Shown in pieces: positions 1 through 55,464 of a stretch of DNA of 64,000 nt. Source of the DNA: an uncultured Gammaproteobacteria bacterium (GTDB lineage Bacteria > Patescibacteriota > Patescibacteriia > UBA2196 > CAYSSY01); the NCBI GenBank assembly GCA_964434055.1, contig CAYSSY010000001.1, positions 5,094 through 69,093 on the forward strand, given 5' to 3'. The notes under the pieces were generated by a model that was not told the DNA's origin, made no database searches, and saw only the letters and a list, made by a program, of their open reading frames with translations. Positions within the stretch are counted from its first letter, which is position 1; every line of letters begins with the position of its first letter. The position numbers were made by a program, and so were the translations under genes.

Positions 1-783
1 GCAGAACTGGAGAGTCAAAAAATAAACCAGATGGTGGAATATAATTCTGGTTATACTCAAACATATTCAAACCAGGTTTATCCATACTCTAACCAATATA
101 CTCTCGGCCCGGTTTACTTTGGGGTGGCTTCTCGATATCACAGCTCCTTAGATGGTAATCCAACATCAAATGGGGAGATATATAACGAACGAAAGTTAAC
201 GGCCGCTCACCGCACATTACCTTTTAACACTTGGGTGCGAGTCACCAATATTTTTAACGGGCGGAGTGTCCTAGTCAGAATTAATGACAGAGGGCCTTTT
301 GTTAAAGGTCGAGACATTGACCTTTCAAAAGCCGCTATGTCTGAGATCGCTGACCTAAGGCAGGGTTTAGTTAGAGTTAAGATGGAGGTGATTAACATGC
401 CTCCACAGTACCAAAACTGGCCGACGCCGGGCTACTACCGGATTGTCAGCAGGTTTGGTGCTTCGCGTAGTGGGGGATTAAGAAGGCATAAGGGGATAGA
501 TATTGGCACACCAGACTATGTCCCAGTACGGTCAAGTGCGCTTGGCATTGTCGCGTGGGCAGGCCATCGTGGAAAATATGGCAACGTCGTTTATGTTCGC
601 CATCTTAACGGGTATGAAACCCGTTATGCCCACTTGAGTCGCATTCACGTGCGCTATGGCCAAATTGTAAACCAGTCTACTGTTCTTGGTTTAACTGGTC
701 AAACTGGGAATTCTACCAGCCCACACCTGCATTATGAGGTGCGCCGCTACGGCCGCGCCCTCAATCCAGTTACAATGAAGTAA
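1..783 (+). CDS. RlpA-like double-psi beta-barrel + M23 (LytM) peptidase fusion, peptidoglycan hydrolase. The reading frame is open to the window edge, so the gene is probably 5'-truncated.
   Basis: The translation has an RlpA/DPBB-like block (VRVTNIFNGRSVLVRINDRGPFV). It ends with an M23 core: GIDIGTP...GNVVYVRH...LTGQTGNSTSPHLHYEV (the HxH zinc motif). There is no stop upstream of the ATG at 31 in frame and no signal peptide after Met31. GC is about 45%, clearly above the local background. Confidence 0.7.
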   Translation, partial: AELESQKINQMVEYNSGYTQTYSNQVYPYSNQYTLGPVYFGVASRYHSSLDGNPTSNGEIYNERKLTAAHRTLPFNTWVRVTNIFNGRSVLVRINDRGPFVKGRDIDLSKAAMSEIADLRQGLVRVKMEVINMPPQYQNWPTPGYYRIVSRFGASRSGGLRRHKGIDIGTPDYVPVRSSALGIVAWAGHRGKYGNVVYVRHLNGYETRYAHLSRIHVRYGQIVNQSTVLGLTGQTGNSTSPHLHYEVRRYGRALNPVTMK

Positions 784-824
784 TTAATTCAAATAACTGT
801 TTTTCTTTAAAGAAGGAGTAAGCC

Positions 825-1430
825 ATGAAACGCAATCTGTTTTTCATCGCGATTTTGGTTCTGGTAATCGCCACTATTGTCTCTGCTCAGACCAAAATCG
901 AAGTCACCGACCCGCAGGGGTTGGTGGTTCCACAGCCGGCGTTCATCCAGTACCTTGCCTACCTGGCCGCTGACGATAGCGCCAGCCAGGCCAAGGCACG
1001 CATACTCGAAAATGTGATCGGCAAGGCACAGCTCGGGAAATTAATCACCACCTACTACACTGAGGTGGCAAAAAACCCGGGCAAGTTCGAGATTCGCGGC
1101 TCCAATGGATTCGGAGGGATCTTTGATCTCCTCTACAAAAAAAACCCGGACATCGTGAATTTGAATCAGACTCTTGCTCTGCTCCCTAACAATGTCATGG
1201 CCGGCGCCGCTGCTCGTGCCATCGACAAAAACGACGCCAACCTGCAAGTTCTCGAACATACCCGTTCGCCATGGGGCATGCCCGGCAGTACGGAAACGGT
1301 CTACAAAGGCAACTTCCAGGGCAACTATGGCGCTGGCGGGTATTCAACCGGCGGCCTGGATGCGCAGACCTTTGACGCCGCTTATCAAGCTTCGGCGGCA
1401 AGAGCGGCTGCCAAACGCCGCCTGCGCTAG
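825..1430 (+). CDS. Secreted hypothetical protein (Sec signal peptide, Ala/Gly-rich), GC-rich island gene
   Basis: AGGAG SD 8 nt upstream of the ATG. N-terminal signal peptide MKRNLFFIAILVLVIATIVSAQT. About 55% GC versus about 33% background. No recognisable domain. Confidence 0.5.
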   Translation: MKRNLFFIAILVLVIATIVSAQTKIEVTDPQGLVVPQPAFIQYLAYLAADDSASQAKARILENVIGKAQLGKLITTYYTEVAKNPGKFEIRGSNGFGGIFDLLYKKNPDIVNLNQTLALLPNNVMAGAAARAIDKNDANLQVLEHTRSPWGMPGSTETVYKGNFQGNYGAGGYSTGGLDAQTFDAAYQASAARAAAKRRLR

Positions 1431-5536: not shown

Positions 5537-6430
5537 TTATTTAAAATTATGAGTCTTTATTGTCTCTTTCATATACTCCTTGAGCGGTTCACTCAATTCC
5601 TTATTCTTTAAGGCAAAACGAATAATTGTTTTTATATACTCCAATTTATTGCCGGTATCGCACCAAGTGGTGTTAGTCAACCGACAAGCGTAAACTGGCC
5701 TTTTTTTAGCTAACTGTTTGATAGCATCAACCAACCAAACCTCACCACCTCTACCAGCTTTTAATTTTTCCAAAATTGGAAAAATATCTGGTGTTAAAAC
5801 ATAACCTGATGGTGCGGTCAAAAAAGGTATTTTTACTTTATCAGCACCGGGTTTTTCCACAATTTCTTTTACAAGCCAAATATTTTTTTCCACTTCTTTA
5901 CCATAAATTATGCCGTAGTGATTGGCATCTTCTTTGCCCCGTGGCTCCATGCCAGTAATAATTGGACTCTGGTATTTCTCCCAGCATTTCATAAGTTGTT
6001 CGGCTCTCGACGGCTTGGCATCAAATAATTCATCTCCCCAGACAACAAAAAACGGCTCATTGCCAATAATATGTCGAGTATTGAGAATCGGCGTGCCGTT
6101 GCCATATAACCCCTTCTGACGAATATAAATAAAATTAGCTAATTCAGCTATCCGCCTTATCTCTTTTAGTTGTTCAATTTTCCCAGCTTCTTCCAATCTT
6201 TTTTCAAGCTCAAAAGGATAATCAAAATGATCTTCAATAATACGCTTATGCCAACCAGTTACTAAAACAATGTCCTTGATACCAGCTTCAACTGCTTCCT
6301 CAACAATAAACTGAATGGTTGGTTTATCGACGACCGGTAACATTTCTTTAGGCATCGCCTTTGTCGCTGGCAAAAATCTAGTTCCAAAACCAGCCACAGG
6401 AATAACGGCCTTTTTTATTTTTTGGACCAT
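5537..6430 (-). CDS. galU: UTP--glucose-1-phosphate uridylyltransferase
   Basis: N-terminus KAVIPVAGFGTRFLPATKAMPKEMLPVVDKP, which is the GalU signature. Confidence 0.85.
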   Translation of the reverse strand: MVQKIKKAVIPVAGFGTRFLPATKAMPKEMLPVVDKPTIQFIVEEAVEAGIKDIVLVTGWHKRIIEDHFDYPFELEKRLEEAGKIEQLKEIRRIAELANFIYIRQKGLYGNGTPILNTRHIIGNEPFFVVWGDELFDAKPSRAEQLMKCWEKYQSPIITGMEPRGKEDANHYGIIYGKEVEKNIWLVKEIVEKPGADKVKIPFLTAPSGYVLTPDIFPILEKLKAGRGGEVWLVDAIKQLAKKRPVYACRLTNTTWCDTGNKLEYIKTIIRFALKNKELSEPLKEYMKETIKTHNFK

Positions 6431-6507
6431 AGGGTTTAAAAAAGTTATGCTAGCTGAGGAAAATTTACTATAGTCAGTATATCATTTTTACTAATTCGAA
6501 GAAAATA

Positions 6508-6903
6508 TCATTTCTTGAGAAGATCTCTAATCTCGGTTAAAAGTTTTTCCTGAAGTGAGGGTTCAGGTGTCGCTGGTTGTGTTTGTTCTTTTTTCTTTAA
6601 AGAATTGAGTACTTTAATAGCTAAAAAAATAACTGCCGCAATAATCACAAAATCAACGGCTGCTTGAATAAACGAACCATAATTTAAAGTAACTGCTGCC
6701 TGGTTGTTGGTGGCACTCTTTAAAATTATCTTAAGCTCAGTAAAATTAATGCCGCCCAGAAGAACCCCAAAAGGAGGCATTAAAACGTCGGCAACAAAGG
6801 AAGACACGATCTTGCCAAAAGCCCCACCAATAATCACGCCGACTGCTAAATCAATGACACTTCCGCGCATGGCAAAATGTTTAAATTCTTCAAAAATTTT
6901 CAT
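6508..6903 (-). CDS. mscL: Large-conductance mechanosensitive channel
   Basis: FKHFAMRGSVIDLAVGVIIGGAFGKIVSSFVADVLMPPFG, the classic MscL N-terminus. Length 131 aa. Confidence 0.9.
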   Translation of the reverse strand: MKIFEEFKHFAMRGSVIDLAVGVIIGGAFGKIVSSFVADVLMPPFGVLLGGINFTELKIILKSATNNQAAVTLNYGSFIQAAVDFVIIAAVIFLAIKVLNSLKKKEQTQPATPEPSLQEKLLTEIRDLLKK

Positions 6904-6934
6904 AACTTCTCTTATTAATAATCAATTCTTAAAA

Positions 6935-7492
6935 TTAACGTACAGCTTTTAATTCCATATACCAACCTTGGGGTTTTTGGCACAACGGACATTTCCCTGG
7001 AGCACTTGTGCCTTTGTGGACATAACCGCAATTCAAACACTTCCATTCGGTTTCTGTCTCGCTTTTAAAAAGTTTGCCCTGCTCTAAACGATCAGCCAAA
7101 ATTGTATAGCGTTCGGCGTGTTTCTCTTCGACTTCAGATATTTCCTGAAACAAATGGGCAATTTCCGTTTCTCCTTCATCCTCAGCAACTTTTTTAAAAT
7201 CGGGGTACATTGTACCAAATTCATATTCCTCACCTTCAGCTGCATGTCTTAAATTTTCCAAAGTGGTGCCTAAGGGATGAATATCATAGGTATTGGTCAT
7301 CTCTGTCTTCTCTGTTAATTTTTCCAACTCTTCTTGAGCATGCGCCCGTTCATTATCAGCGGTTTCCAAAAAAACTTGAGCAACCCACATCAACCCTTCT
7401 TTTTGAGCAATCTCAGCAAAATAAGTATATTTGTTGCGAGCCATTGACTCTCCGGCAATAGCTTTTAATAAATTGGCTTGTGTTTGTTTCAT
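6935..7492 (-). CDS. Rubrerythrin (ferritin-like diiron domain + C-terminal rubredoxin-like CxxC...CxxC)
   Basis: C-terminus CLNCGYVHKGTSAPGKCPLCQ. The N-terminal region carries ExxH-type diiron motifs. Confidence 0.8.
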   Translation of the reverse strand: MKQTQANLLKAIAGESMARNKYTYFAEIAQKEGLMWVAQVFLETADNERAHAQEELEKLTEKTEMTNTYDIHPLGTTLENLRHAAEGEEYEFGTMYPDFKKVAEDEGETEIAHLFQEISEVEEKHAERYTILADRLEQGKLFKSETETEWKCLNCGYVHKGTSAPGKCPLCQKPQGWYMELKAVR

Positions 7493-7643
7493 ATTAATGT
7501 CCTTATTAATATTTAACCTAAATGGTTAAATAAATGACTGATTAATGCTTTCTATACTATAAATAATATACTATTTAAATAATAAAGAAAATATTGTTAT
7601 ATTTTAAATTTCAACTTTTATTCTTGTTTGGTGGCTTAAGATA

Positions 7644-8021
7644 TTAAAAATAATTTAATCCTTGGGGTGATTCATGACTAGTTACTATCTTTTGATATTC
7701 TGGCTCATAAATTTCCGTAATTTGATATTTGCCGGAAGTTGTTTGATTTTCTCGACTATCACCTTGTATGGTTTGCTCGAGTATAATAATTTTACCCCAA
7801 TAAAGCCACTTATCTTGAATGTTCTGCACTAAAAAACAGCGGTTAGGTGCCGGATGGTAAAGCCGGGCACCTTTTTTATTATGAAATTCAAAGACTTTAC
7901 CCTGAACAACTTCTAATTTAATTCGATTAAGTTGGTGTTTATTAACATCTAAAATATCGGCGGGAAAGCCCTGTTCAGCTGTAATTCTTAAAGTATCATT
8001 TAATTCCACGAAACTACCCAT
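7644..8021 (-). CDS. Hypothetical protein
   Basis: 125-aa ORF with an ATG start and no recognised motif. Confidence 0.35.
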   Translation of the reverse strand: MGSFVELNDTLRITAEQGFPADILDVNKHQLNRIKLEVVQGKVFEFHNKKGARLYHPAPNRCFLVQNIQDKWLYWGKIIILEQTIQGDSRENQTTSGKYQITEIYEPEYQKIVTSHESPQGLNYF

Positions 8022-16430: not shown

Positions 16431-17196
16431 ATGCAACTCACTATTTTAGGATCCGGTACGGGTATTGCCACAAAAAATCGTAACGCACCCGGCTATCTTA
16501 TAAACGTCGGTAATAAATTAATATTACTTGACGCCGGAGAAGGAACAAAAAGACAAATTATTAAAGCAGGGTTTGATTTATTTTCATTAACACATATCTT
16601 TATTACTCACACCCATGTTGATCATGTGGCTGAAATTCCGGCAATAGTATGGCCTTTTCATTTTACACGGGTAAAAAGTGTTCTAAATTTTTTTGGTCCA
16701 CCACGGTTTAAAAAATTTTTTGGAACCGCTTTCAAGGCATTCATACCGAATATAAATCAAAGAAAGAAACTAAAAATTAAAATCAGAGAATTAAAAAATA
16801 ATAAAATAAAGCTAGATGACATAACTATTGAAACCAGACTGATGACTGAAAAAATGGGAAGCACTTTTTTGTGAACAAGAAATCGGCTATAGCATCACTT
16901 CAAAAAACAAATCAGTAGTTTTTTGTGGAGATAATACTGAAGAAAGTCTGCCAGACATAATGTGCTTAGCAAAAAACTGTGATCTGTTAATTTTAGATTG
17001 TGGACAGATTAAACCAGGTAATGGTCACTTAACACCAACTCTCGCTGGTCAAATAGCACAAGCCGCACAGGTAAAAAAACTGCTACTCACTCACTTTTAT
17101 CCTGAAATGGAAAAAATTGATATAAAAAAAATAGTCAAAAAATATTATTCCGGCCCAATTATATTGGCCAAAGATTTAATGAAAATTAAAATATAA
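16431..17196 (+). pseudogene. MBL-fold metallo-hydrolase (RNase Z/ElaC-like). It is split by a +1/-1 frameshift in a T6 homopolymer at 16865-16870.
   Basis: ORF 16431..16874 carries HTHVDH (the HxHxDH motif). ORF 16960..17196 in another frame carries the C-terminal part (LLLTHFYP). Removing one T from the tttttt run joins them into a roughly 255-aa protein. Confidence 0.6.
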
Positions 17197-17200
17197 ATTT

Positions 17201-17638
17201 ATGAAAGATAACAAAAATAAAAGACTTATGGTGGGGGTTGTTGTTGGTGTAGTTATTAAAAAAAACAACCACTATCTTCTGGTCCAGGAAAAGAAAAAAG
17301 AAGTTTATGGTTTATGGAATTTACCGGCCGGTCATGTTGATGTCGGCGAAACATTAGAAGCCGCTGCCAAGAGAGAAGCTAGGGAAGAAACTGGTTTCAA
17401 AGTTAAAATTTTAAAGCACATTTTAATGCGCATTAAAGTTCATCATGATGGAAATGAATCAAATATTAAATATGTTTATCAAGGGAAAATTGTCAGTGGA
17501 AAAATAAATTTTCCAAAGGATGAAATTCTTGATGTAAAATGGTTTACTTTTAATGAAATAATGAAAATGAAAAACAAACTTAGAAACATTTGGGTTATTG
17601 ATTCCATTAAACTAGCAAAAAAATATGAACTTAAATAG
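17201..17638 (+). CDS. NUDIX hydrolase
   Basis: Nudix box GHVDVGETLEAAAKREAREETGF. Confidence 0.8.
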   Translation: MKDNKNKRLMVGVVVGVVIKKNNHYLLVQEKKKEVYGLWNLPAGHVDVGETLEAAAKREAREETGFKVKILKHILMRIKVHHDGNESNIKYVYQGKIVSGKINFPKDEILDVKWFTFNEIMKMKNKLRNIWVIDSIKLAKKYELK

Positions 17639-18401
17639 AGAAAAACAAGTTGCTCTTTTGGCAGCTAAAAAAGCCGGGGCAGAACTTTTAAAACATTTTA
17701 CTAAAATCAGCCGCGCAGTTATCAAAACTAAAAGCAAGCATGAAATTATTACGCCGGCTGATTTGGCTTCGGAAAAAATCATCCTAAATTTAATCAAAAA
17801 AAAATTCCCTAGCCATGCTATTCTTTCAGAAGAAGCCGGACAGAATAAAAAACATTCTGATTATCTGTGGGTAATTGATCCTTTAGATGGCACAACAAAT
17901 TTTGCTATGGGCAATCCTCTTTTTTCCATATCTATAGCTCTTGCTTATAAAAACGAAGTGGTAATGGGACTTGTGACAGCGCCTTACTTAAAAGAAATTT
18001 ATTTGGCAACAAAAAATCATGGCGCTTTTTTAAACGGAAAAAAAATTAGTGTTTCTCAAGAAAGAGAAATTACAAATTCGCTTCTAACATACTGCCATGG
18101 TAACAATAACCAAAGTATCAAGCGTGCCATCAAAATTCATAGTCGTTTAAAATTTCTAGCTCGAGACATCAGACAGATTGGTTCAGCAGCCATTGAGATG
18201 ACCTGGGTCGCACGAGGCAGAACTGATGCTATTATTATTCCAGGTGTCAGACCTTGGGACATTGCCGCTGGCGTTCTTATAGTGCTTGAAGCTAATGGCC
18301 AAGTTACAGACTTAAAAGGCGAGACGTGGCATTTAAAAACCAACGATGTTTACGCCAGTAATGGATTGGTGCACGACAAATTACTAAAATTAATCCAATA
18401 A
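17625..18401 (+). CDS. Inositol monophosphatase family protein (SuhB-like)
   Basis: WVIDPLDGTTNFAMG and LSEEAG motifs. Overlaps the NUDIX gene by 14 nt. Confidence 0.8.
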   Translation: MNLNREKQVALLAAKKAGAELLKHFTKISRAVIKTKSKHEIITPADLASEKIILNLIKKKFPSHAILSEEAGQNKKHSDYLWVIDPLDGTTNFAMGNPLFSISIALAYKNEVVMGLVTAPYLKEIYLATKNHGAFLNGKKISVSQEREITNSLLTYCHGNNNQSIKRAIKIHSRLKFLARDIRQIGSAAIEMTWVARGRTDAIIIPGVRPWDIAAGVLIVLEANGQVTDLKGETWHLKTNDVYASNGLVHDKLLKLIQ

Positions 18402-18686: not shown

Positions 18687-18761
18687 GGTCCCTTCGTCTA
18701 ACGGTTAGGACATCAGGTTTTCATCCTGAAAATAGGGGTTCGATTCCCCTAGGGACTACCA
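18687..18761 (+). tRNA. tRNA-Glu (anticodon TTC), CCA encoded
   Basis: Acceptor GGTCCCT/AGGGACT, anticodon loop TTTTCAT, T-loop TTCGATT. A terminator hairpin follows at 18767-18796. Confidence 0.85.
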
Positions 18762-18868
18762 AAAGATACTCATTCGTGATAATGAGTGTTTTTTGTTTTA
18801 GAGGTTTTTTCTTTTGTTAAAAAATTAAAAAAAGTCTGATCAATACTGATCAGACTTTAAGAGTCTTG

Positions 18869-20635
18869 TTATTTTTTCTCCTCCAACTTGAGTCTGAATA
18901 ATAACTGCCAAAGATATGTTTGTAATTTGCCATAACTCCAAGTCTGGTTATCAATCCACGTATCGCCCCCTGCCAACACCTTTTCCAGATGATTAACAAC
19001 CGCTTGCCAACCACCAACTTCTCTGCTCACCTCTTCATTGATCACAAAAGGGTCAAAATCTGCAACTGTCTCTGCTATGGGAAGAATGTGGCAAGCACAA
19101 TAGAAAGATTCAGCTAAACCAGCTTCTTCATCTCCGATCGCACCAGCTGCTTCATACAATGAGTCAGCAAAGTCTTGGATTTCAGTGACTGAATACTCCG
19201 GTACCACAGTTGGGCCGCAAATATAGATTGTACCTTGACCAGTAGTGGCATCGTTGACCACTTCAATTGGTACCTGCCAAACCTTGATACAGCGATCAAA
19301 TTTGGCACAGCACTCAAGCTGATGTAAAAACGCCAAGTCAGTCTCAGTACCAATAAATAAGATATCCTCTCGGCTGCAGATCTGCTGAAAATGTTGTCCA
19401 CCGCGACCGCTAGTGTGGTTAAGAGAAGGGAGACCGGCGGAAATATGACCCACAGTATTATACTGAAGTTCCACTAACGCAGCAGCGTTATTGAAATGGG
19501 TATAACTTAACGTTGGAACACGTTCAAAGGATAATCCGGCCACTAAAGGACCAAAGCCAGAAAAACCTGTCTGGGGTACTATCAGCAGATAATTTTTGAG
19601 GATACCGTTAAGATATTCTAGCCAAGAAACATTTTCGTGCGTCCAACCATGTAAACCAGCCCGAACTACAACCTGACAAAACTTCTTGCCATGATTCACG
19701 ATGTCGGTCCCTTGGCACAAAATTACTTTACCTGTGGCTTCATGTGAAATCGGGTCAGGAATTTTATCCTCAAATGGTGCTGCTTGCACAACGGTGATCG
19801 CATCTGGATTAGTATCCGGTGTAGCCCATTCGAGATAATAATTTTTCTGGATTTTAAGTAAGCGCAACGCCTCCCAGAATTTTATCAGTGGCTCGGGTGA
19901 AAAACATCGCCGTAATTCATCAGGCACTGGAATTTCTTCACACTGTCCAGATTCAACATTTATTGCCTGTAAAGTACAAAGATGACTGAGGTTGTAACTG
20001 ATATCAAACATGGTTGGCAACTCTTTGCTAATAACCACCGCTTCAGAATCAACTGCTTTTGTCCCTAAACCCAGACAAACTCGGATTAAACGCTGACCTC
20101 CATAACTCGTGTAAGCACTGCCTGCCAGAAGCGGACAAAAGTACTTACCATAATGACGACCGACCACTGATTGAATCATGACTGCAATACCAAAAGGTGT
20201 ATAGTGTTTTTGGCGATAAGCTCTGGCGTCAGCGCTAAACTCACTGGCAAAAACTGTACATTCAGCCTGCCACAGGAGTTCAAGATTTGATTCCTGGTTT
20301 GCTTTGGGCACAATGAAAACTGTTTTATAAATACCAGTACCGCCCCGCTCACCTCTGGCTGAGGAACGGACAGCTACTGGATAACCTGTTTTGAACCCTG
20401 AAACTAATTCCTGATTAATTGTCAGAAGATCTGGCGGAATTCTGCCACTCAGAACCTGATCTTGATCAGTGTTTTGCTCAAAACCGTTTGTTGCCAAAAA
20501 AGATAAAAAATATTCAACCCCTACTATCTCACCGATAATCGCCTGTAAACCAGCCTGAGATACATCTTGAACAGCGTCTAACAAATCTTGAAATTTGAGA
20601 CCGCCGTCCTGACCGTGTAATTTGTAAAGAGCCAT
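18869..20635 (-). CDS. PEP synthase / pyruvate-phosphate-dikinase-like protein: N-terminal ATP-grasp (PPDK_N-type) domain plus a possible degenerate swivel-His segment. It lacks the C-terminal PEP-binding TIM barrel. GC-rich, likely foreign.
   Basis: PVAVRSSARGE...VFASEFSADARAYR...GIAVMIQSVV...CLGLGTKAV aligns block-wise to the PPDK_N consensus (VAVRSSA, VFASLF..R...YR, AWGLGE). Later, TSGRGGQHFQQICSRED resembles the GGxxSHAAIxARE phospho-His motif. About 47% GC. The track start is TTG; the start was moved to ATG 20635, which has an AAGGAG SD. Terminator hairpin at 18833-18856. Confidence 0.5.
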   Translation of the reverse strand: MALYKLHGQDGGLKFQDLLDAVQDVSQAGLQAIIGEIVGVEYFLSFLATNGFEQNTDQDQVLSGRIPPDLLTINQELVSGFKTGYPVAVRSSARGERGGTGIYKTVFIVPKANQESNLELLWQAECTVFASEFSADARAYRQKHYTPFGIAVMIQSVVGRHYGKYFCPLLAGSAYTSYGGQRLIRVCLGLGTKAVDSEAVVISKELPTMFDISYNLSHLCTLQAINVESGQCEEIPVPDELRRCFSPEPLIKFWEALRLLKIQKNYYLEWATPDTNPDAITVVQAAPFEDKIPDPISHEATGKVILCQGTDIVNHGKKFCQVVVRAGLHGWTHENVSWLEYLNGILKNYLLIVPQTGFSGFGPLVAGLSFERVPTLSYTHFNNAAALVELQYNTVGHISAGLPSLNHTSGRGGQHFQQICSREDILFIGTETDLAFLHQLECCAKFDRCIKVWQVPIEVVNDATTGQGTIYICGPTVVPEYSVTEIQDFADSLYEAAGAIGDEEAGLAESFYCACHILPIAETVADFDPFVINEEVSREVGGWQAVVNHLEKVLAGGDTWIDNQTWSYGKLQTYLWQLLFRLKLEEKK

Positions 20636-20897
20636 CTTAGTCTCCTTCAATTTTATTTTCCATAATCTCAACAGTCACATGTTACTTGAAGGTCAAAAAC
20701 TTGTCAATTTAAACTTTGATTATCATGACCCCAAACACAATTAAATAAAAGATCTAATTATTGGTTTTAATGCTAGTATTTTCAAGATTTTGACTAAATT
20801 GAAAAAACAAACCCTTGACAAGTAGCCAACTAACTCTACTATTAATATTAATAATTTTTCAATTCTAATAATTACCTATTAAAATCAGTATTAATTT

Positions 20898-22466
20898 ATG
20901 GAAACAGATACTAGGTCAAACGGTCAATTAGCAATCAAAAAAATAGGCACAAACGAAGTATTAAAAAAACTTAAAGAAAGTATCTTGATTCACAAACCAG
21001 TACTACGTCAGATTATCAATGATCACGGCGATAAATATATTAGCCAGTATGCTGAAAGTTATCATCAACTATCAATTAGTAAAAAAATAACCTCACGACA
21101 AATACAACTACTTAATACCTTTAATAAATATGTAGCAGACCGCCTTGATCAGTCGGTGGCAGATCAGGCTACGCAGCAGCTTAAAAAATCTTATTTTGTT
21201 TCTACTACTGATCATCATGGACCGTTAATTCATCCTTTTTTTGTTAATGGTAACCTAATCAGCGCCGCCTCACATCTCAGTCAAAATCCACAAGGACCAA
21301 ACAATGTCATTGTTTTTTCCTGTGCTAACGTATCTTTAAATAACTCATCTTTTCCGCGCGGCCTGCTTTTCCACCGGCTAGAAAAAAATAAAGCACACAT
21401 GGAACGACTGTCTTTCTATCCGGCCAGTGACCGACTGTGCCCTGTCTATGGTTTGCGACCTTATACCAGCAAAGATATCGATCGACTTGTCAAACAAATA
21501 AATAACTTGAATAAAAAAGGTAAACTCTCAAATAAAACCACGGCCGATATCCGCGAAATACTAACTGGTGTTATGGGAACAGAAAAAATACTCACAACCA
21601 AAAACTTTACTGATCAAGTTACAAAAATTAATTTTCAACTTTGGCAAATTTTCTTCCGCCGTAATAATCTTAATGCTATGAATCTGATCTATATTGATCA
21701 AGAGGGTTTAGTAAATGAGTTGTTACTTAACTACCACCTAGACAAAAATACACTGATCAATAAAATTCTATTCAATAATGAAGTCAGAAAACTCTGGTTG
21801 TTATATTTTGACGGTATCATCGGCTCGTTCAATACTGCTGATAAAATCGGCACTCATTTCTTTTGGGCAATACCACCGAATGAAAAATACCGTCAACAGC
21901 TCTGGTATAAAGACGGCCGTCTGCAAACAAGTGATGGTAGTTATTCTCTGGATTTAAATCCACAAACAATCAGACAGGCAATTCTCAATAAAGAAATTAT
22001 GCCCGGCATGGCATTAACCTTTACCATACTGGCTTTTTATTACGGTTTAAAATGTTTAGGTGGCTTTAGTCAGGTCAATTATCTAAGTGAGATGAAAGCT
22101 AGTTTCCTGAAACTAATCACTGACATCAACGACATAGAAAGCCGGGAAATAAGCCAAGGAGTAATTACCAATGAATTATGTGGAGAGGTAACTTTAGCCT
22201 TCATTCAAAGCCCAGGACAATTTATTCATCCCGCTACCTTTATAGATTTGTTGCTCTATGGCGACAGAAGCACCTGGCAAAAAATTACTCAACTAATGAA
22301 ACAAATAAAACTTGAAGAGGCTCTCGACCCTTTAATGCCTGAGCTTTACCGCATTGTCTATAGTGATCAAGAACGTTTAACGTTTTTAACCGATATTACC
22401 CCTGAACATATTATTCAAGAAACCAAACTAGGTAAAAAAATACATCCTTGCGCTTTTCTTGTTTAG
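20898..22466 (+). CDS. Hypothetical 522-aa protein, divergent from the PPDK_N-like gene
   Basis: Long ORF with an ATG start and no recognised motif. A candidate promoter TTGACA is at 20814. Confidence 0.4.
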   Translation: METDTRSNGQLAIKKIGTNEVLKKLKESILIHKPVLRQIINDHGDKYISQYAESYHQLSISKKITSRQIQLLNTFNKYVADRLDQSVADQATQQLKKSYFVSTTDHHGPLIHPFFVNGNLISAASHLSQNPQGPNNVIVFSCANVSLNNSSFPRGLLFHRLEKNKAHMERLSFYPASDRLCPVYGLRPYTSKDIDRLVKQINNLNKKGKLSNKTTADIREILTGVMGTEKILTTKNFTDQVTKINFQLWQIFFRRNNLNAMNLIYIDQEGLVNELLLNYHLDKNTLINKILFNNEVRKLWLLYFDGIIGSFNTADKIGTHFFWAIPPNEKYRQQLWYKDGRLQTSDGSYSLDLNPQTIRQAILNKEIMPGMALTFTILAFYYGLKCLGGFSQVNYLSEMKASFLKLITDINDIESREISQGVITNELCGEVTLAFIQSPGQFIHPATFIDLLLYGDRSTWQKITQLMKQIKLEEALDPLMPELYRIVYSDQERLTFLTDITPEHIIQETKLGKKIHPCAFLV

Positions 22467-53730: not shown

Positions 53731-54768
53731 TTAGTCCAATTTTCTTACAGATCCACTCGAAGTATCAACTTCGACCAAATCACCGTCATTAAAAATTTGT
53801 GTAGCACATCGTGTTCCAACAACACAAGGAATTCCTAGCTCACGGGAAATGATGGCAGCATGACACATCAAACCGCCCTCATCAGTCACTATCGCTTTAA
53901 CATATTTCAATACTGGCACCAACTGCGGGTTGGTCATGCCAGTAATTAAGATACAATCTTGAGGTAAATCAGGAACGTGACTAAACGACAAATGCAGTTT
54001 AGCACGACCAACTACTTTTTCATTGACCTGATAGGAAACCCGTCCGGTAACTTTTTTTTCAGTCTTATTAACAGACAATTTATCCCTTAAACCCAAATAT
54101 TCATGATCAGTGTGTATGACCCAGTTTTTTCTAAAAACATAACCGCTTTTTCTTTGTAAGAGTGCTGGGGCATTAACAAATTTTTTATTAAAAATCAAAT
54201 TACTAAATTCATCAAAAGTCATAATCTCGATGTCGTCTAGCGCAATTTGAAACTCTTTGCCGGCTTTGATAATCACCTTTTCAAAAAGCAGATGCAAGAC
54301 ACTTAGATAATGGTGAGCCTTTAATCTAAACTGGCCGATAAACTCCAAACGTTTATAGATTCCGGTATTATCTTTTTGTTCTTCCAATGATAAGAGTGAC
54401 GATTCCTCACATAAAACATAGACATCGCATATGTCTTTTATATATGCCAAAAGCATCTGCCACCATTCATTAAAGTACTTACTATCAAATTTGGGAATTT
54501 GTGTTTGGTTAATTTTATCTATCACGACAAACTTTTGTTTCAGTTCATTAAATATTTCCTGCCACTGATCATTGTCTAGTAGATACCGCTTACCCATTAA
54601 ATAAGCTTGCTCCATGCCCGCTTTTGTCAAATAAACAGAGAAAGCTTTCTGTTCACCATCATAAAGGCAAACATAGTCATTATTACCATAATCAGTCTTT
54701 TCGAATAGATAGCTGACCAACGGTAATGGAAACTGTTCTTTAAAATTTAAATAATATTCTTGATTCAT
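53731..54768 (-). CDS. Protein with C-terminal PEP-utilising-enzyme mobile (swivel phospho-His) domain. The N-terminal 250 aa are uncharacterised.
   Basis: ITGMTNPQLVPVLKYVKAIVTDEGGLMCHAAIISRELGIPCVVG matches the GGxxSHAAIxARExGIPxVVG consensus. Confidence 0.6.
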   Translation of the reverse strand: MNQEYYLNFKEQFPLPLVSYLFEKTDYGNNDYVCLYDGEQKAFSVYLTKAGMEQAYLMGKRYLLDNDQWQEIFNELKQKFVVIDKINQTQIPKFDSKYFNEWWQMLLAYIKDICDVYVLCEESSLLSLEEQKDNTGIYKRLEFIGQFRLKAHHYLSVLHLLFEKVIIKAGKEFQIALDDIEIMTFDEFSNLIFNKKFVNAPALLQRKSGYVFRKNWVIHTDHEYLGLRDKLSVNKTEKKVTGRVSYQVNEKVVGRAKLHLSFSHVPDLPQDCILITGMTNPQLVPVLKYVKAIVTDEGGLMCHAAIISRELGIPCVVGTRCATQIFNDGDLVEVDTSSGSVRKLD

Positions 54769-54876
54769 ATTTTTATTATCTTGCGCCGGTCAAACATTAA
54801 TAATAAACTTAACCGGTCCAGTTTAACAAAAATTATTGGAGCAGACAGACAAAGTGCATCTGTCTGCTCCTGTGTG

Positions 54877-55464
54877 CTAACTGCTTTTAACCTCCTCTAA
54901 GGAAATCGTTGACAATTTACCTGTTTCCAGATCGTAACGGAAGCAGTGAATGGATCCCGGCTTTGGTGCAAACACCTCATAAACACGTAGATAATGATCT
55001 TCATCTACTGGAATAATCCCGTTTGCTAGTGTATATAATGGTACGATGTATGCGCCACTTCCCACCAGCAACGCCCGACCACCTTCTGATAATCGCTCAG
55101 CCAAATTTCGGATAATCACCTTCGCTATCGGCTCGTACTCATCAATGAGTCGGTCACCGGCGCCTTCAGGATACAACTTGCCACATTTACTGTTTGTACG
55201 AGGATCAAGACGAGTGTCACACACTCGTTTTCTATAATTTACTCTGGTTTCAATGTGTGACCATGTCTCCCGCATCCGCTGTAAAGCACCATGAGCCACG
55301 AGATCGAACTCCATTCCCTCCACTTGTTCTGCAGCGCCGTCTCCTTGAGCGTGTCCGTCTGATGAAAGACCGGCATCACCCGATTCTAACCTTTCAATGT
55401 CATCCGCCGACGTATCGCCGTGGCGTACGAAGACGATGTCTATAAACTTTTTGGTCGTTTCCAT
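54877..55464 (-). CDS. Histidine-phosphatase-superfamily (PGAM-like, RHG motif) protein, GC-rich gene
   Basis: IVFVRHGDT (RHG), SSDGHAQG. About 52% GC. AAGGAG SD. Lies immediately upstream of the swivel-His gene in the same orientation. Confidence 0.55.
   Translation of the reverse strand: METTKKFIDIVFVRHGDTSADDIERLESGDAGLSSDGHAQGDGAAEQVEGMEFDLVAHGALQRMRETWSHIETRVNYRKRVCDTRLDPRTNSKCGKLYPEGAGDRLIDEYEPIAKVIIRNLAERLSEGGRALLVGSGAYIVPLYTLANGIIPVDEDHYLRVYEVFAPKPGSIHCFRYDLETGKLSTISLEEVKSS

What the first reader, a model, noticed from the sequence alone, without database searches (positions are those of the whole stretch)
18833..22466. GC-rich PEP-synthase-like ATP-grasp gene lacking the PEP-binding barrel, paired divergently with a 522-aa unknown protein
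The 589-aa minus-strand protein aligns block by block to the N-terminal ATP-grasp (PPDK_N) domain of PEP synthase or pyruvate-phosphate dikinase (VAVRSSA.., VFAS.F...R.YR, G.AV..Q..V, .LGLG). Near residue 420 it carries TSGRGGQHFQQICSRED, reminiscent of the swivel phospho-His motif GGxxSHAAIxARE. It ends at 589 aa and has no room for the roughly 300-aa C-terminal PEP/pyruvate TIM barrel. So it is not a PEP synthase. It looks like a kinase of the rifampin-phosphotransferase logic (ATP-grasp, then His~P, then an unknown acceptor). Its GC (about 47%) is well above background, and it has its own SD and terminator. Taken together this suggests a horizontally acquired module. The divergently transcribed 522-aa ORF 20898..22466 has no recognisable domain. 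It could be the acceptor or substrate-binding partner.
Basis: partly seen in the sequence, partly recalled or inferred. Interest (0 to 1): 0.65.

Follow-up and report, generated by a model that had tools for sequence, protein, structure and literature searches.

The report
Barrel-less PEP-synthase-like kinase, unrelated neighbour
This gene encodes a rare, horizontally moving enzyme of ultra-small (CPR) bacteria that keeps the ATP-binding and phosphate-carrying parts of PEP synthase but has no built-in target-binding part, and the unknown gene next to it is an unrelated housekeeping-type gene rather than its partner.

Summary

The family is rare: about 60 full-length 50%-identity clusters, found in 13 of 185,579 species genomes. 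It is confined to CPR bacteria, with a sister group in DPANN archaea. It has no conserved neighbours, and its GC often exceeds that of its flanks (+8.6 points here: 43.5%, not 47%).

The partner idea fails. ORF B (522 aa) has more than 349 CPR homologs, never lies beside an ORF A homolog, and folds like BshC and class I lysyl-tRNA synthetase.

Best reading: ORF A is a self-phosphorylating, dikinase-type phosphotransferase whose acceptor is supplied in trans and remains unknown. It is a new variant of a known kind and of moderate interest.

The parts
18869..20635 (-). ORF A coding sequence: 588 aa from the ATG at 20635, stop codon at 18869-18871
   Evidence: ORF list. Translation and coordinates checked. 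Identical protein P0001 in the database.
19754..20635 (-). ATP-grasp (PPDK_N) domain, residues about 1-294. The ATP-site residues are Lys14, Arg90, Thr105, Glu269 and Gln284.
19199..19753 (-). Highly diverged swivel (phosphohistidine-carrier) domain, residues about 295-479, enlarged by a low-confidence insertion before the His motif
19391..19393 (-). Codon of His415, the proposed phosphate-carrying histidine, in GRGGQ-H-FQQICSREDILFIG
   Evidence: Invariant in A1 (listed there as H416). The H-F...C...ILF.G motif is present in nearly all family members and in the DPANN subfamily. It sits at the start of a helix that is followed by a strand, as in canonical swivel domains. The canonical motif GGxT[S/C]HAA[IV][IV]A is quoted in PMC12167813.
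18872..19198 (-). C-terminal helical region, residues about 480-588; poorly conserved and absent from some family members
   Evidence: Helices 484-518, 535-561 and 572-588 in the model. No invariant column lies after G469. Members of 471-510 aa end right after the swivel domain.
18831..18858 (-). Intrinsic-terminator-like hairpin (12-bp stem plus T-run) just after the ORF A stop codon
   Evidence: inverted repeat I10
20642..20707 (-). ORF A expression signals: GGAG Shine-Dalgarno (20642-20645) and a sigma-70-like promoter TTGACA-17-TAACAT (20707..20679)
   Evidence: Sequence read; consensus scan. These are consensus matches only.
18687..18761 (+). tRNA-Glu(UUC) gene, 107 nt from the ORF A stop codon; a possible insertion landmark
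   Evidence: ARAGORN and Rfam. No att-like repeat of the tRNA 3' end was found on the far side of ORF A.
20898..22466 (+). ORF B, 522 aa. It is not part of the ORF A function. It belongs to a CPR-wide family with a BshC / class I aminoacyl-tRNA-synthetase-like fold.

Best explanation
ORF A encodes a stand-alone, three-part enzyme of the PEP-synthase / PPDK / rifampin-phosphotransferase superfamily that lacks any built-in acceptor-binding module.

Shown: (1) an intact PPDK_N-type ATP-grasp with the phosphate- and Mg-binding residues conserved; (2) a much-diverged but structurally recognisable swivel domain with an invariant histidine (His415); (3) a variable helical tail; (4) no TIM barrel and no RIF-binding-like domain.

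Inferred mechanism, by analogy with PPDK, PpsA, RPH, HpeHI and VadK: the grasp domain binds Mg-ATP. His415 attacks the beta-phosphate, AMP leaves, and the gamma-phosphate is lost to water. The result is His415~P. The swivel domain then carries the phosphate away from the ATP site and hands it to an acceptor that is not part of this polypeptide. That acceptor could be a protein, a separately encoded module or a small molecule.

The gene is an accessory, horizontally exchanged single-gene unit in CPR bacteria, with a sister family in DPANN archaea. The divergent neighbour ORF B is functionally unrelated.
For: Architecture:
- Pfam PPDK_N, 46.8 bits.
- AF2 model, pLDDT 84.8.

Catalytic residues:
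- Lys14, Arg90, Ser/Thr105, Glu269, Gln284 and His415 are invariant in 12 diverse members.
- They align to RPH Lys22, Arg117, Thr136 and Glu297, whose roles were tested by mutagenesis.
- The His-Phe motif is conserved across about 70 family clusters and the DPANN subfamily.

Not a truncation:
- Homologs are 578-628 aa.
- About 60 full-length 50%-identity clusters exist.

Not a PpsA substitute:
- A Staskawiczbacteria genome has a canonical ppsA 5 kb from its ORF A homolog.

Stand-alone and mobile:
- No conserved neighbour in 13 loci.
- GC of the gene exceeds its flanks by 6-14 points in 5 of 12 loci.
- Found in 13 of 185,579 species genomes.
- Own promoter-like site, Shine-Dalgarno and terminator.

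Precedent:
- VadK (Rv1127c), a PPDK relative with only the ATP and His domains, autophosphorylates on His422 (PMC13400623).
Against: - The swivel domain has no significant sequence similarity to PF00391. His415 is assigned by motif resemblance, invariance and secondary-structure order, not by a residue-level structural superposition, which I could not obtain.
- A second invariant His (His407) lies 8 residues upstream in the CPR family.
- No acceptor site could be identified. The C-terminal helices are unconserved.
- No experiment exists for any family member; all are labelled 'hypothetical'.
- The AF2 alignment was shallow (12 sequences), and the loop before the His motif has low confidence.
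Confidence: 0.55

Rival explanations
1. ORF A is a self-sufficient small-molecule (antibiotic or xenobiotic) phosphotransferase in the manner of RPH. The substrate would bind in a cleft formed by the enlarged swivel domain and/or the C-terminal helices, and the gene would spread horizontally as a resistance determinant.
Against: There is no counterpart of the roughly 430-aa RIF-binding domain or of its catalytic Arg666/Glu667. The C-terminal helices have no invariant residue and are missing in 471-510-aa members and in the DPANN subfamily. The ABC genes are generic and not orthologous neighbours. There are no PADLOC hits and no full-length relatives on plasmids or phages.
Confidence: 0.2
2. 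ORF A is a VadK-like protein kinase or phosphodonor. His415~P would be passed to one or more proteins, possibly including stand-alone canonical swivel-domain proteins such as the 345-aa protein at 53731..54768, to regulate metabolism.
For: ORF A has the same minimal architecture as VadK, which autophosphorylates and acts on methylcitrate-cycle enzymes. The core without the helical tail exists as a complete protein in some members. CPR and DPANN genomes hold many stand-alone PF00391 proteins (713 hits), one of them in this window.
Against: There is no conserved operon partner. The 345-aa family is far more widespread than ORF A and is not adjacent to PPDK_N genes in the two contexts seen. A horizontally mobile regulator needs a conserved target in every recipient genome. 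VadK is a close PPDK relative with a canonical His domain, and ORF A is not.
Confidence: 0.2
3. ORF A is one half of a split PEP synthase or PPDK whose PEP/pyruvate TIM barrel is encoded elsewhere in the genome.
For: Multi-subunit relatives exist, namely phenylphosphate synthase PpsAB, CreHI and HpeHI (PMC12167813). Only 64 kb of this genome was visible.
Against: No PF02896-like sequence appears in the window or beside any of 13 homolog loci. One carrier genome has a complete canonical ppsA as well. The His motif departs strongly from the near-universal GGxT[S/C]HAA of PEP synthases. The family is far too rare to be central metabolism.
Confidence: 0.05
4. One reading: ORF A and the divergent 522-aa ORF B form a kinase plus acceptor/substrate-binding pair.
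For: The two genes are transcribed divergently from a shared 262-bp intergenic region.
Against: ORF B has 349+ homologs throughout CPR, against 13 for ORF A in the same database. No ORF B homolog occurs in any of the 20 fetched loci (13 distinct) carrying ORF A relatives, and no ORF A homolog occurs in 3 ORF B loci. ORF B GC is at background (36.5%) while ORF A is at 43.5%. ORF B has an unrelated ligase-type fold.
Confidence: 0.03
5. ORF A is a decayed, non-catalytic remnant (a pseudoenzyme) of a dikinase.
For: The swivel domain has lost all detectable sequence similarity to PF00391. No acceptor domain is present.
Against: ATP-site residues and the His motif are strictly conserved across members that share only 31-40% identity. 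The ORF is intact, with expression signals. The model is confidently folded.
Confidence: 0.05

Closest known systems
Rifampin phosphotransferase (RPH; Listeria monocytogenes, PDB 5FBS/5HV1/5HV6)
   Different: RPH is about 865 aa, with a roughly 430-aa rifampin-binding domain between the grasp and a C-terminal, canonical swivel domain. ORF A goes straight from grasp to a diverged swivel, then has a short unconserved helical tail. There is no equivalent of Arg666/Glu667.
VadK (Rv1127c) of Mycobacterium tuberculosis, a truncated PPDK (PMC13400623)
   Same: It has the same minimal architecture: an ATP-binding domain plus a His domain, with no PEP/pyruvate domain and none elsewhere to complement it. 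The catalytic His lies at a similar position (His422 versus His415).
Two-component small-molecule dikinases HpeHI / CreHI / phenylphosphate synthase PpsAB (PMC12167813; HpeI PDB 9GOJ)
   Different: In those systems the grasp is a separate subunit, and the swivel is fused to a large substrate-binding domain encoded next door. In ORF A the grasp and swivel are fused, and no substrate-binding partner is adjacent.
PEP synthase (PpsA) and pyruvate phosphate dikinase (PPDK)
   Same: They share the PPDK_N ATP-grasp (hhalign to E. coli PpsA 22-345) and the domain order grasp then swivel.
   Different: There is no C-terminal PEP/pyruvate TIM barrel (PF02896). The His motif GGxT[S/C]HAA is not conserved. 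ORF A coexists with a canonical ppsA in at least one genome.
BshC (bacillithiol cysteine-adding enzyme) and class I lysyl-tRNA synthetase, for ORF B only
   Different: Identity is 10-12%. No member hits the Pfam or NCBIfam BshC or tRNA-synthetase models. ORF B is found in CPR bacteria, where bacillithiol synthesis is not known (no paper links them).

Membership tests
PPDK_N ATP-grasp domain (PF01326) | Score above the Pfam gathering threshold | tested here: met
   46.8 bits against a cutoff of 27. 12 of 12 family members hit the model.
PPDK_N ATP-grasp domain (PF01326) | ATP-grasp fold of the PPDK/RPH type with conserved phosphate- and Mg-binding residues | tested here: met
   [not shown]
PEP-utilizers mobile (swivel phosphohistidine) domain (PF00391) | Sequence match to the family model | tested here: not met
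   No hit at E<=1 in any of 12 members. Profile-profile comparison against 120 canonical domains gives E 0.06, probability 0.9%.
PEP-utilizers mobile (swivel phosphohistidine) domain (PF00391) | Swivel-domain fold | tested here: met
   [not shown]
PEP-utilizers mobile (swivel phosphohistidine) domain (PF00391) | Catalytic His in GGxT[S/C]HAA[IV][IV]A at the start of a helix | tested here: inconclusive
   An invariant His415 lies in G-R-G-G-Q-H-F-Q-Q-I-C-S-R-E at a helix start followed by a strand. The motif only partly matches. I had no residue-level superposition.
PEP synthase / pyruvate phosphate dikinase | C-terminal PEP/pyruvate-binding TIM barrel (PF02896) | tested here: not met
   The protein ends at residue 588 with helices. 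There is no Pfam hit. tblastn with the E. coli PpsA C-terminal domain finds nothing in the window or beside homologs.
Rifampin phosphotransferase | Large rifampin-binding domain between the ATP-grasp and a C-terminal swivel domain, with catalytic Arg666/Glu667 | tested here: not met
   The swivel domain follows the grasp directly. Only about 105 unconserved helical residues remain after it.
Rifampin phosphotransferase | Phosphorylation of rifamycins, conferring resistance | not testable with these tools
   Needs MIC and enzyme assays.
VadK-like truncated PPDK kinases | ATP domain plus His domain only, with no PEP domain | tested here: met
   Domain map. The VadK description comes from PMC13400623.
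VadK-like truncated PPDK kinases | Close descent from PPDK with a canonical His domain; Mg-ATP-dependent autophosphorylation | tested here: not met
   [not shown]
Two-component dikinases (HpeHI/CreHI/PpsAB) | Separate ATP-grasp subunit encoded next to a substrate-binding plus swivel subunit | tested here: not met
   The grasp and swivel are fused in one chain. No conserved neighbour appears in 13 loci.
BshC (PF10079 / NCBIfam thiol_BshC), for ORF B | Sequence match to the family models | tested here: not met
   No hit at E<=1 in ORF B or in any of 48 homologs. The profile finds no PDB chain.
BshC (PF10079 / NCBIfam thiol_BshC), for ORF B | BshC fold (Rossmann core of class I aaRS type plus helical domains) | tested here: met
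   [not shown]
BshC (PF10079 / NCBIfam thiol_BshC), for ORF B | Co-occurrence with bshA and bshB (bacillithiol pathway) | not tested
   Complete genomes were not available. The review PMC5790435 gives this as the way BshC was identified.
Class I aminoacyl-tRNA synthetases, for ORF B | HIGH and KMSKS signature motifs | tested here: inconclusive
   An invariant V-S-T-x-D-H-h-G-P follows the first Rossmann strand, and Y-Y-G-x-K-C-L-G-G-F-S-Q-x-N-Y-L-x-x-M-K sits at the last strand. These are the positions where HIGH and KMSKS lie, but neither motif is canonical, and I had no superposition.

The most novel reading that the evidence does not exclude
The ORF A family, together with its DPANN sister family, would be an ATP-driven phosphohistidine generator specific to ultra-small episymbionts. 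It would feed phosphate into a so far unrecognised relay of stand-alone swivel-domain proteins and histidine phosphatases, such as the His_Phos_1 plus 345-aa PF00391 gene pair at 53731..55464, or onto a host-derived molecule. That would be a new PTS-like signalling or scavenging circuit rather than a metabolic dikinase or a resistance enzyme.
Probability: 0.1. Interest if true: 0.75.

Novelty: new variant of a known kind. Interest (0 to 1): 0.45.

Why it matters
Dikinases of the PpsA/PPDK/RPH superfamily are normally understood through their third, acceptor-binding domain. Only recently, with VadK in 2026, was a barrel-less relative shown to be an active kinase with a regulatory role.

This family is a second, independent and much more diverged case. 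It is confined to CPR bacteria and DPANN archaea, organisms whose accessory genes are almost entirely uncharacterised. It also appears to move between their genomes.

Identifying its acceptor would show what these reduced cells spend two ATP phosphoanhydride bonds on. It would also extend the known sequence space of phosphohistidine swivel domains, because current domain models miss this one completely.

Separately, the neighbour ORF B shows that a near-ubiquitous CPR protein of unknown function has the fold of BshC, an enzyme whose own reaction has never been reconstituted.

Tried and rejected
- Sequence searches of PDB with ORF A, ORF B and their profiles gave only weak (RPH, E 0.07) or no hits.
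- PADLOC found no defence-system match for ORF A and a negligible JetA hit for ORF B.
- NCBIfam gave only a far-sub-threshold RedH match for ORF A.
- I tried to prove the swivel domain by sequence. hhalign of the family against the E. coli PpsA swivel region and against a profile of 120 canonical domains was not significant in either case. The claim therefore rests on fold and motif.
- A search for att-like direct repeats of the tRNA-Glu 3' end flanking ORF A found nothing convincing.
- A search for a phage, plasmid or IMG/VR vehicle found no full-length relatives.
- An all-against-all comparison of flanking ORFs in 13 loci found only generic ABC ATPases (4 loci) and an inositol monophosphatase (2 loci).
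- I tested whether the 345-aa canonical swivel protein of this window occurs near ORF A homologs. It does not.
- I tested whether the 323-aa gene upstream of a 345-aa homolog is an ATP-grasp. It is not.
- The AFDB Foldseek library was unavailable, and the BshC structure paper is not held.
- A literature search found no paper on either family in CPR.
- I considered truncation by assembly error and rejected it, because homologs have the same length and ORF A has its own terminator.
Full report
**1. What is at the coordinates**

The region holds two divergently transcribed genes.

ORF A runs on the minus strand from an ATG at 20635 to a stop at 18869-18871 and encodes 588 aa. The 589-aa translation (18869-20638) used in my tool calls has one extra N-terminal Lys. 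Residue numbers printed by the tools are therefore one higher than the Met-based numbers used here.
- A GGAG Shine-Dalgarno lies 6 nt upstream of the ATG.
- A sigma-70-like promoter match lies at 20707..20679, and a 12-bp hairpin with a T-run lies at 18858..18831 immediately after the stop.
- A tRNA-Glu(UUC) gene ends 107 nt from the ORF A stop.

ORF B (20898..22466, plus strand, 522 aa) starts 262 bp from ORF A on the other strand.

The window looks like a CPR/Patescibacteria genome. It is 34% GC, and the closest relatives of both genes come from Patescibacteria MAGs.

**2. ORF A: domains**

Sequence models:
- Pfam finds PPDK_N (PF01326) at 46.8 bits against a cutoff of 27, E 3.3e-12, and nothing else of note.
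- NCBIfam gives only a far-sub-threshold match to the prodigiosin ligase RedH, another PPDK_N protein.
- All 12 aligned family members hit PPDK_N, and none hits PEP-utilizers (PF00391) or the PEP barrel.

ATP-grasp domain:
- A profile of the family aligns residues 11-296 to E. coli PpsA 22-345 (hhalign E 9.5e-5).
- An AlphaFold2 model built on the 12-sequence alignment is confident (pLDDT 84.8, pTM 0.79).

Swivel domain:
- Residues about 295-479 therefore have the swivel-domain fold, although no sequence method sees it.

C-terminal region:
- The last 105 or so residues form three long helices.

**3. ORF A: catalytic residues**

Twelve members share only 31-62% identity with the window protein. 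In that alignment the invariant residues include Lys14 (G-x-K, the GGK lysine of PpsA and RPH), Arg90-Ser-Ser, Glu269-Trp (the 'DIEW' glutamate) and Gln284.
- Through the alignments, these correspond to RPH Lys22, Arg117 and Glu297.
- The RPH paper identified those residues as contacting the ATP phosphates and Mg (PMC4844700).
- RPH Thr136 corresponds, by my manual register, to position 105, which is always Ser or Thr.

In the second domain the invariant block is D-H-[TS]-x-G-x-G-[GA]-x-H-F-x-x-[IL]-C-x-R-x-[DN]-I-L-F-[IL]-G.
- The His-Phe pair is present in nearly every one of about 70 family clusters examined. It also appears in the archaeal sister group as H-P-x-x-H-F-x-G-x-L.
- His415 sits at the start of a helix that is followed by a beta-strand. 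That is the arrangement of the catalytic His in GGxT[S/C]HAA[IV][IV]A-R-E-x-G-I-P-x-V-x-G of PEP synthases (motif as quoted in PMC12167813).
- The order of the other strands and helices also matches the E. coli PpsA swivel region, apart from an insertion of about 18 residues with low confidence before the His motif.
- I take His415 as the phosphate carrier. This is an inference, because I could not obtain a residue-level superposition.

**4. ORF A is not a truncated or split PEP synthase**

- Homologs are 578-628 aa.
- An exhaustive profile search of 1.84 billion representative proteins finds about 60 full-length clusters.
- A few members of 471-510 aa stop right after the swivel domain, so the helical tail is dispensable.
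- A related group of about 500 aa matches the grasp and most of the swivel domain.
- That group belongs to Micrarchaeota and other DPANN archaea, and one locus has an archaeal RNA polymerase operon next door.
- No PEP/pyruvate barrel is encoded in the window or next to any homolog.
- One Staskawiczbacteria contig carries a canonical ppsA (46% identical to E. coli PpsA) 5 kb from its ORF A homolog. The two therefore coexist.

**5. Genomic behaviour**

- In GTDB species representatives the family turned up in only 13 loci. These were from Staskawicz-, Falkow-, Uhr- and Saccharibacteria, Paceibacterota, unclassified Patescibacteria and two Micrarchaeota.
- Thirteen distinct neighbourhoods share no gene with each other, apart from generic ABC ATPases (4 loci) and an inositol monophosphatase (2 loci).
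- The window gene is 43.5% GC, against 34.9% for its flanks and 35.4 +/- 5.0% for the other genes. GC3 is 36.3% against 29.7 +/- 6.9%.
- The same excess recurs in other genomes: +14.2, +12.9, +10.3 and +6.1 points. In those cases GC3 reaches up to 59% in contigs of 37-39% GC. Other loci show no excess.
- Together with the patchy distribution and the adjacent tRNA gene, this supports repeated horizontal transfer.
- I found no att-like repeats and no relatives in IMG/VR, phage or plasmid collections, so the vehicle is unknown.

**6. ORF B is not the partner**

- ORF B has at least 349 homologs at 40-50% identity, all from CPR lineages. These include Peregrini-, Gracili- and Magasanikbacteria, Parcubacteria and 'Patescibacteria group'.
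- Three of its neighbourhoods contain no PPDK_N gene.
- tblastn finds no ORF B homolog in any locus carrying an ORF A relative.
- Its GC is at background.
- It has no Pfam or NCBIfam match in any of 48 members, and its profile finds no PDB sequence match.
- Its AlphaFold2 model is very confident (pLDDT 89.9, pTM 0.90).
- An invariant V-S-T-x-D-H-h-G-P follows the first Rossmann strand, where class I synthetases carry HIGH.
- ORF B is thus a conserved CPR protein with an adenylate-forming-ligase type of fold. It is unrelated to ORF A, and the adjacency is coincidental.

**7. How ORF A most likely works**

What is shown is an intact ATP site, a swivel-fold domain with an invariant His, and no acceptor domain.

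By analogy with PPDK, PpsA, RPH, HpeHI and the truncated PPDK VadK, I infer the following steps:
- Mg-ATP binds in the grasp domain.
- His415 attacks the beta-phosphate and AMP is released.
- The gamma-phosphate is lost to water, leaving His415~P.
- The domain swings away and donates the phosphate.

The acceptor must come from outside the polypeptide or bind to a site I cannot recognise. The helical tail is unconserved and optional. My confidence in the chemistry is about 0.55.

For the acceptor I hold two sub-hypotheses at about 0.2 each:
- A small molecule or xenobiotic, RPH-like. This fits the single-gene mobility and the RPH-like grasp domain.
- A protein, VadK-like. This fits the minimal architecture.

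A split PEP synthase, a pairing with ORF B and a dead enzyme are all unlikely.

**8. Comparison with known families and novelty**

ORF A is a member of the PPDK_N ATP-grasp family by sequence and by fold. It fails the defining tests for the other candidates:
- PEP synthase/PPDK: it has no barrel.
- RPH: it has no rifampin-binding domain, and the domain order differs.
- Two-component dikinases: its grasp and swivel are fused, and there is no adjacent partner.
- VadK: it shares only the architecture, not close descent.

No paper in the searched library deals with this family, and all database names are 'hypothetical protein'. I rate it a new variant of a known kind: a barrel-less, CPR/DPANN-restricted dikinase-like family with a cryptic swivel domain.

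Interest is moderate (0.45). The chemistry is unsurprising. The lineage restriction, the mobility, the missing acceptor and the invisibility of its His domain to current models are worth a specialist's attention.

Noticed in passing
[not shown]
   Followed up: partly
window 53731..54768 (-) and 54877..55464 (-): A 345-aa protein has an unknown 250-aa N-terminal part and a canonical swivel phosphohistidine domain at its very C-terminus (PF00391, 82.5 bits; [24 protein letters not shown]). It is preceded by a His_Phos_1 histidine-phosphatase-family gene of unusually high GC (47%). The family (713 hits) is again CPR plus DPANN (Nanoarchaeota, Woesearchaeota). In another genome (L028) it is also preceded by a protein with a weak His_Phos_1 match. 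No ATP-grasp partner is adjacent.
   Followed up: partly
L026 1578-3182; proteins P0199, P0210, P0230, P0251; loci L022, L023: A sister subfamily of about 500 aa (grasp plus swivel with H-P-x-x-H-F, no helical tail) occurs in Micrarchaeota and other DPANN archaea. One copy sits next to an archaeal RNA polymerase operon. This implies exchange of the family between CPR bacteria and DPANN archaea.
   Followed up: partly
L011 12726-13727: A Staskawiczbacteria contig carries a canonical ppsA (46% identity to E. coli PpsA residues 10-343) about 5 kb from its ORF A homolog. That homolog is 12.9 GC points above its flanks.
   Followed up: partly
window 17201..18401 (+); L001 13791-14576; L008 4573-6520: Phosphohydrolase genes recur near family members. 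A Nudix and an inositol monophosphatase lie just beyond the tRNA in the window. An inositol monophosphatase lies 4 kb away in L001. His_Phos_1 and HD genes lie directly upstream in L008. This could be chance or a hint at a phospho-metabolite context.
   Followed up: no
window 31..1430 (+): Two further genes have GC well above background. One is an M23 peptidase with a DPBB lytic-transglycosylase-like domain (47% GC). The other is a 201-aa ORF with no Pfam match (55% GC, GC3 66%). They may be other acquired genes. Rfam shows this is not rRNA.
   Followed up: partly
window 16431..16874 (+): A 147-aa ORF matches only the N-terminal half of metallo-beta-lactamase / tRNase Z-type models and is followed by a 326-nt gap. 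It may be a truncated or frameshifted gene.
   Followed up: no
L014 6001-7785: The Saccharibacteria homolog of ORF A appears split into two ORFs (6094-7473 and 7546-7785). It may be a frameshift or a pseudogene.
   Followed up: no
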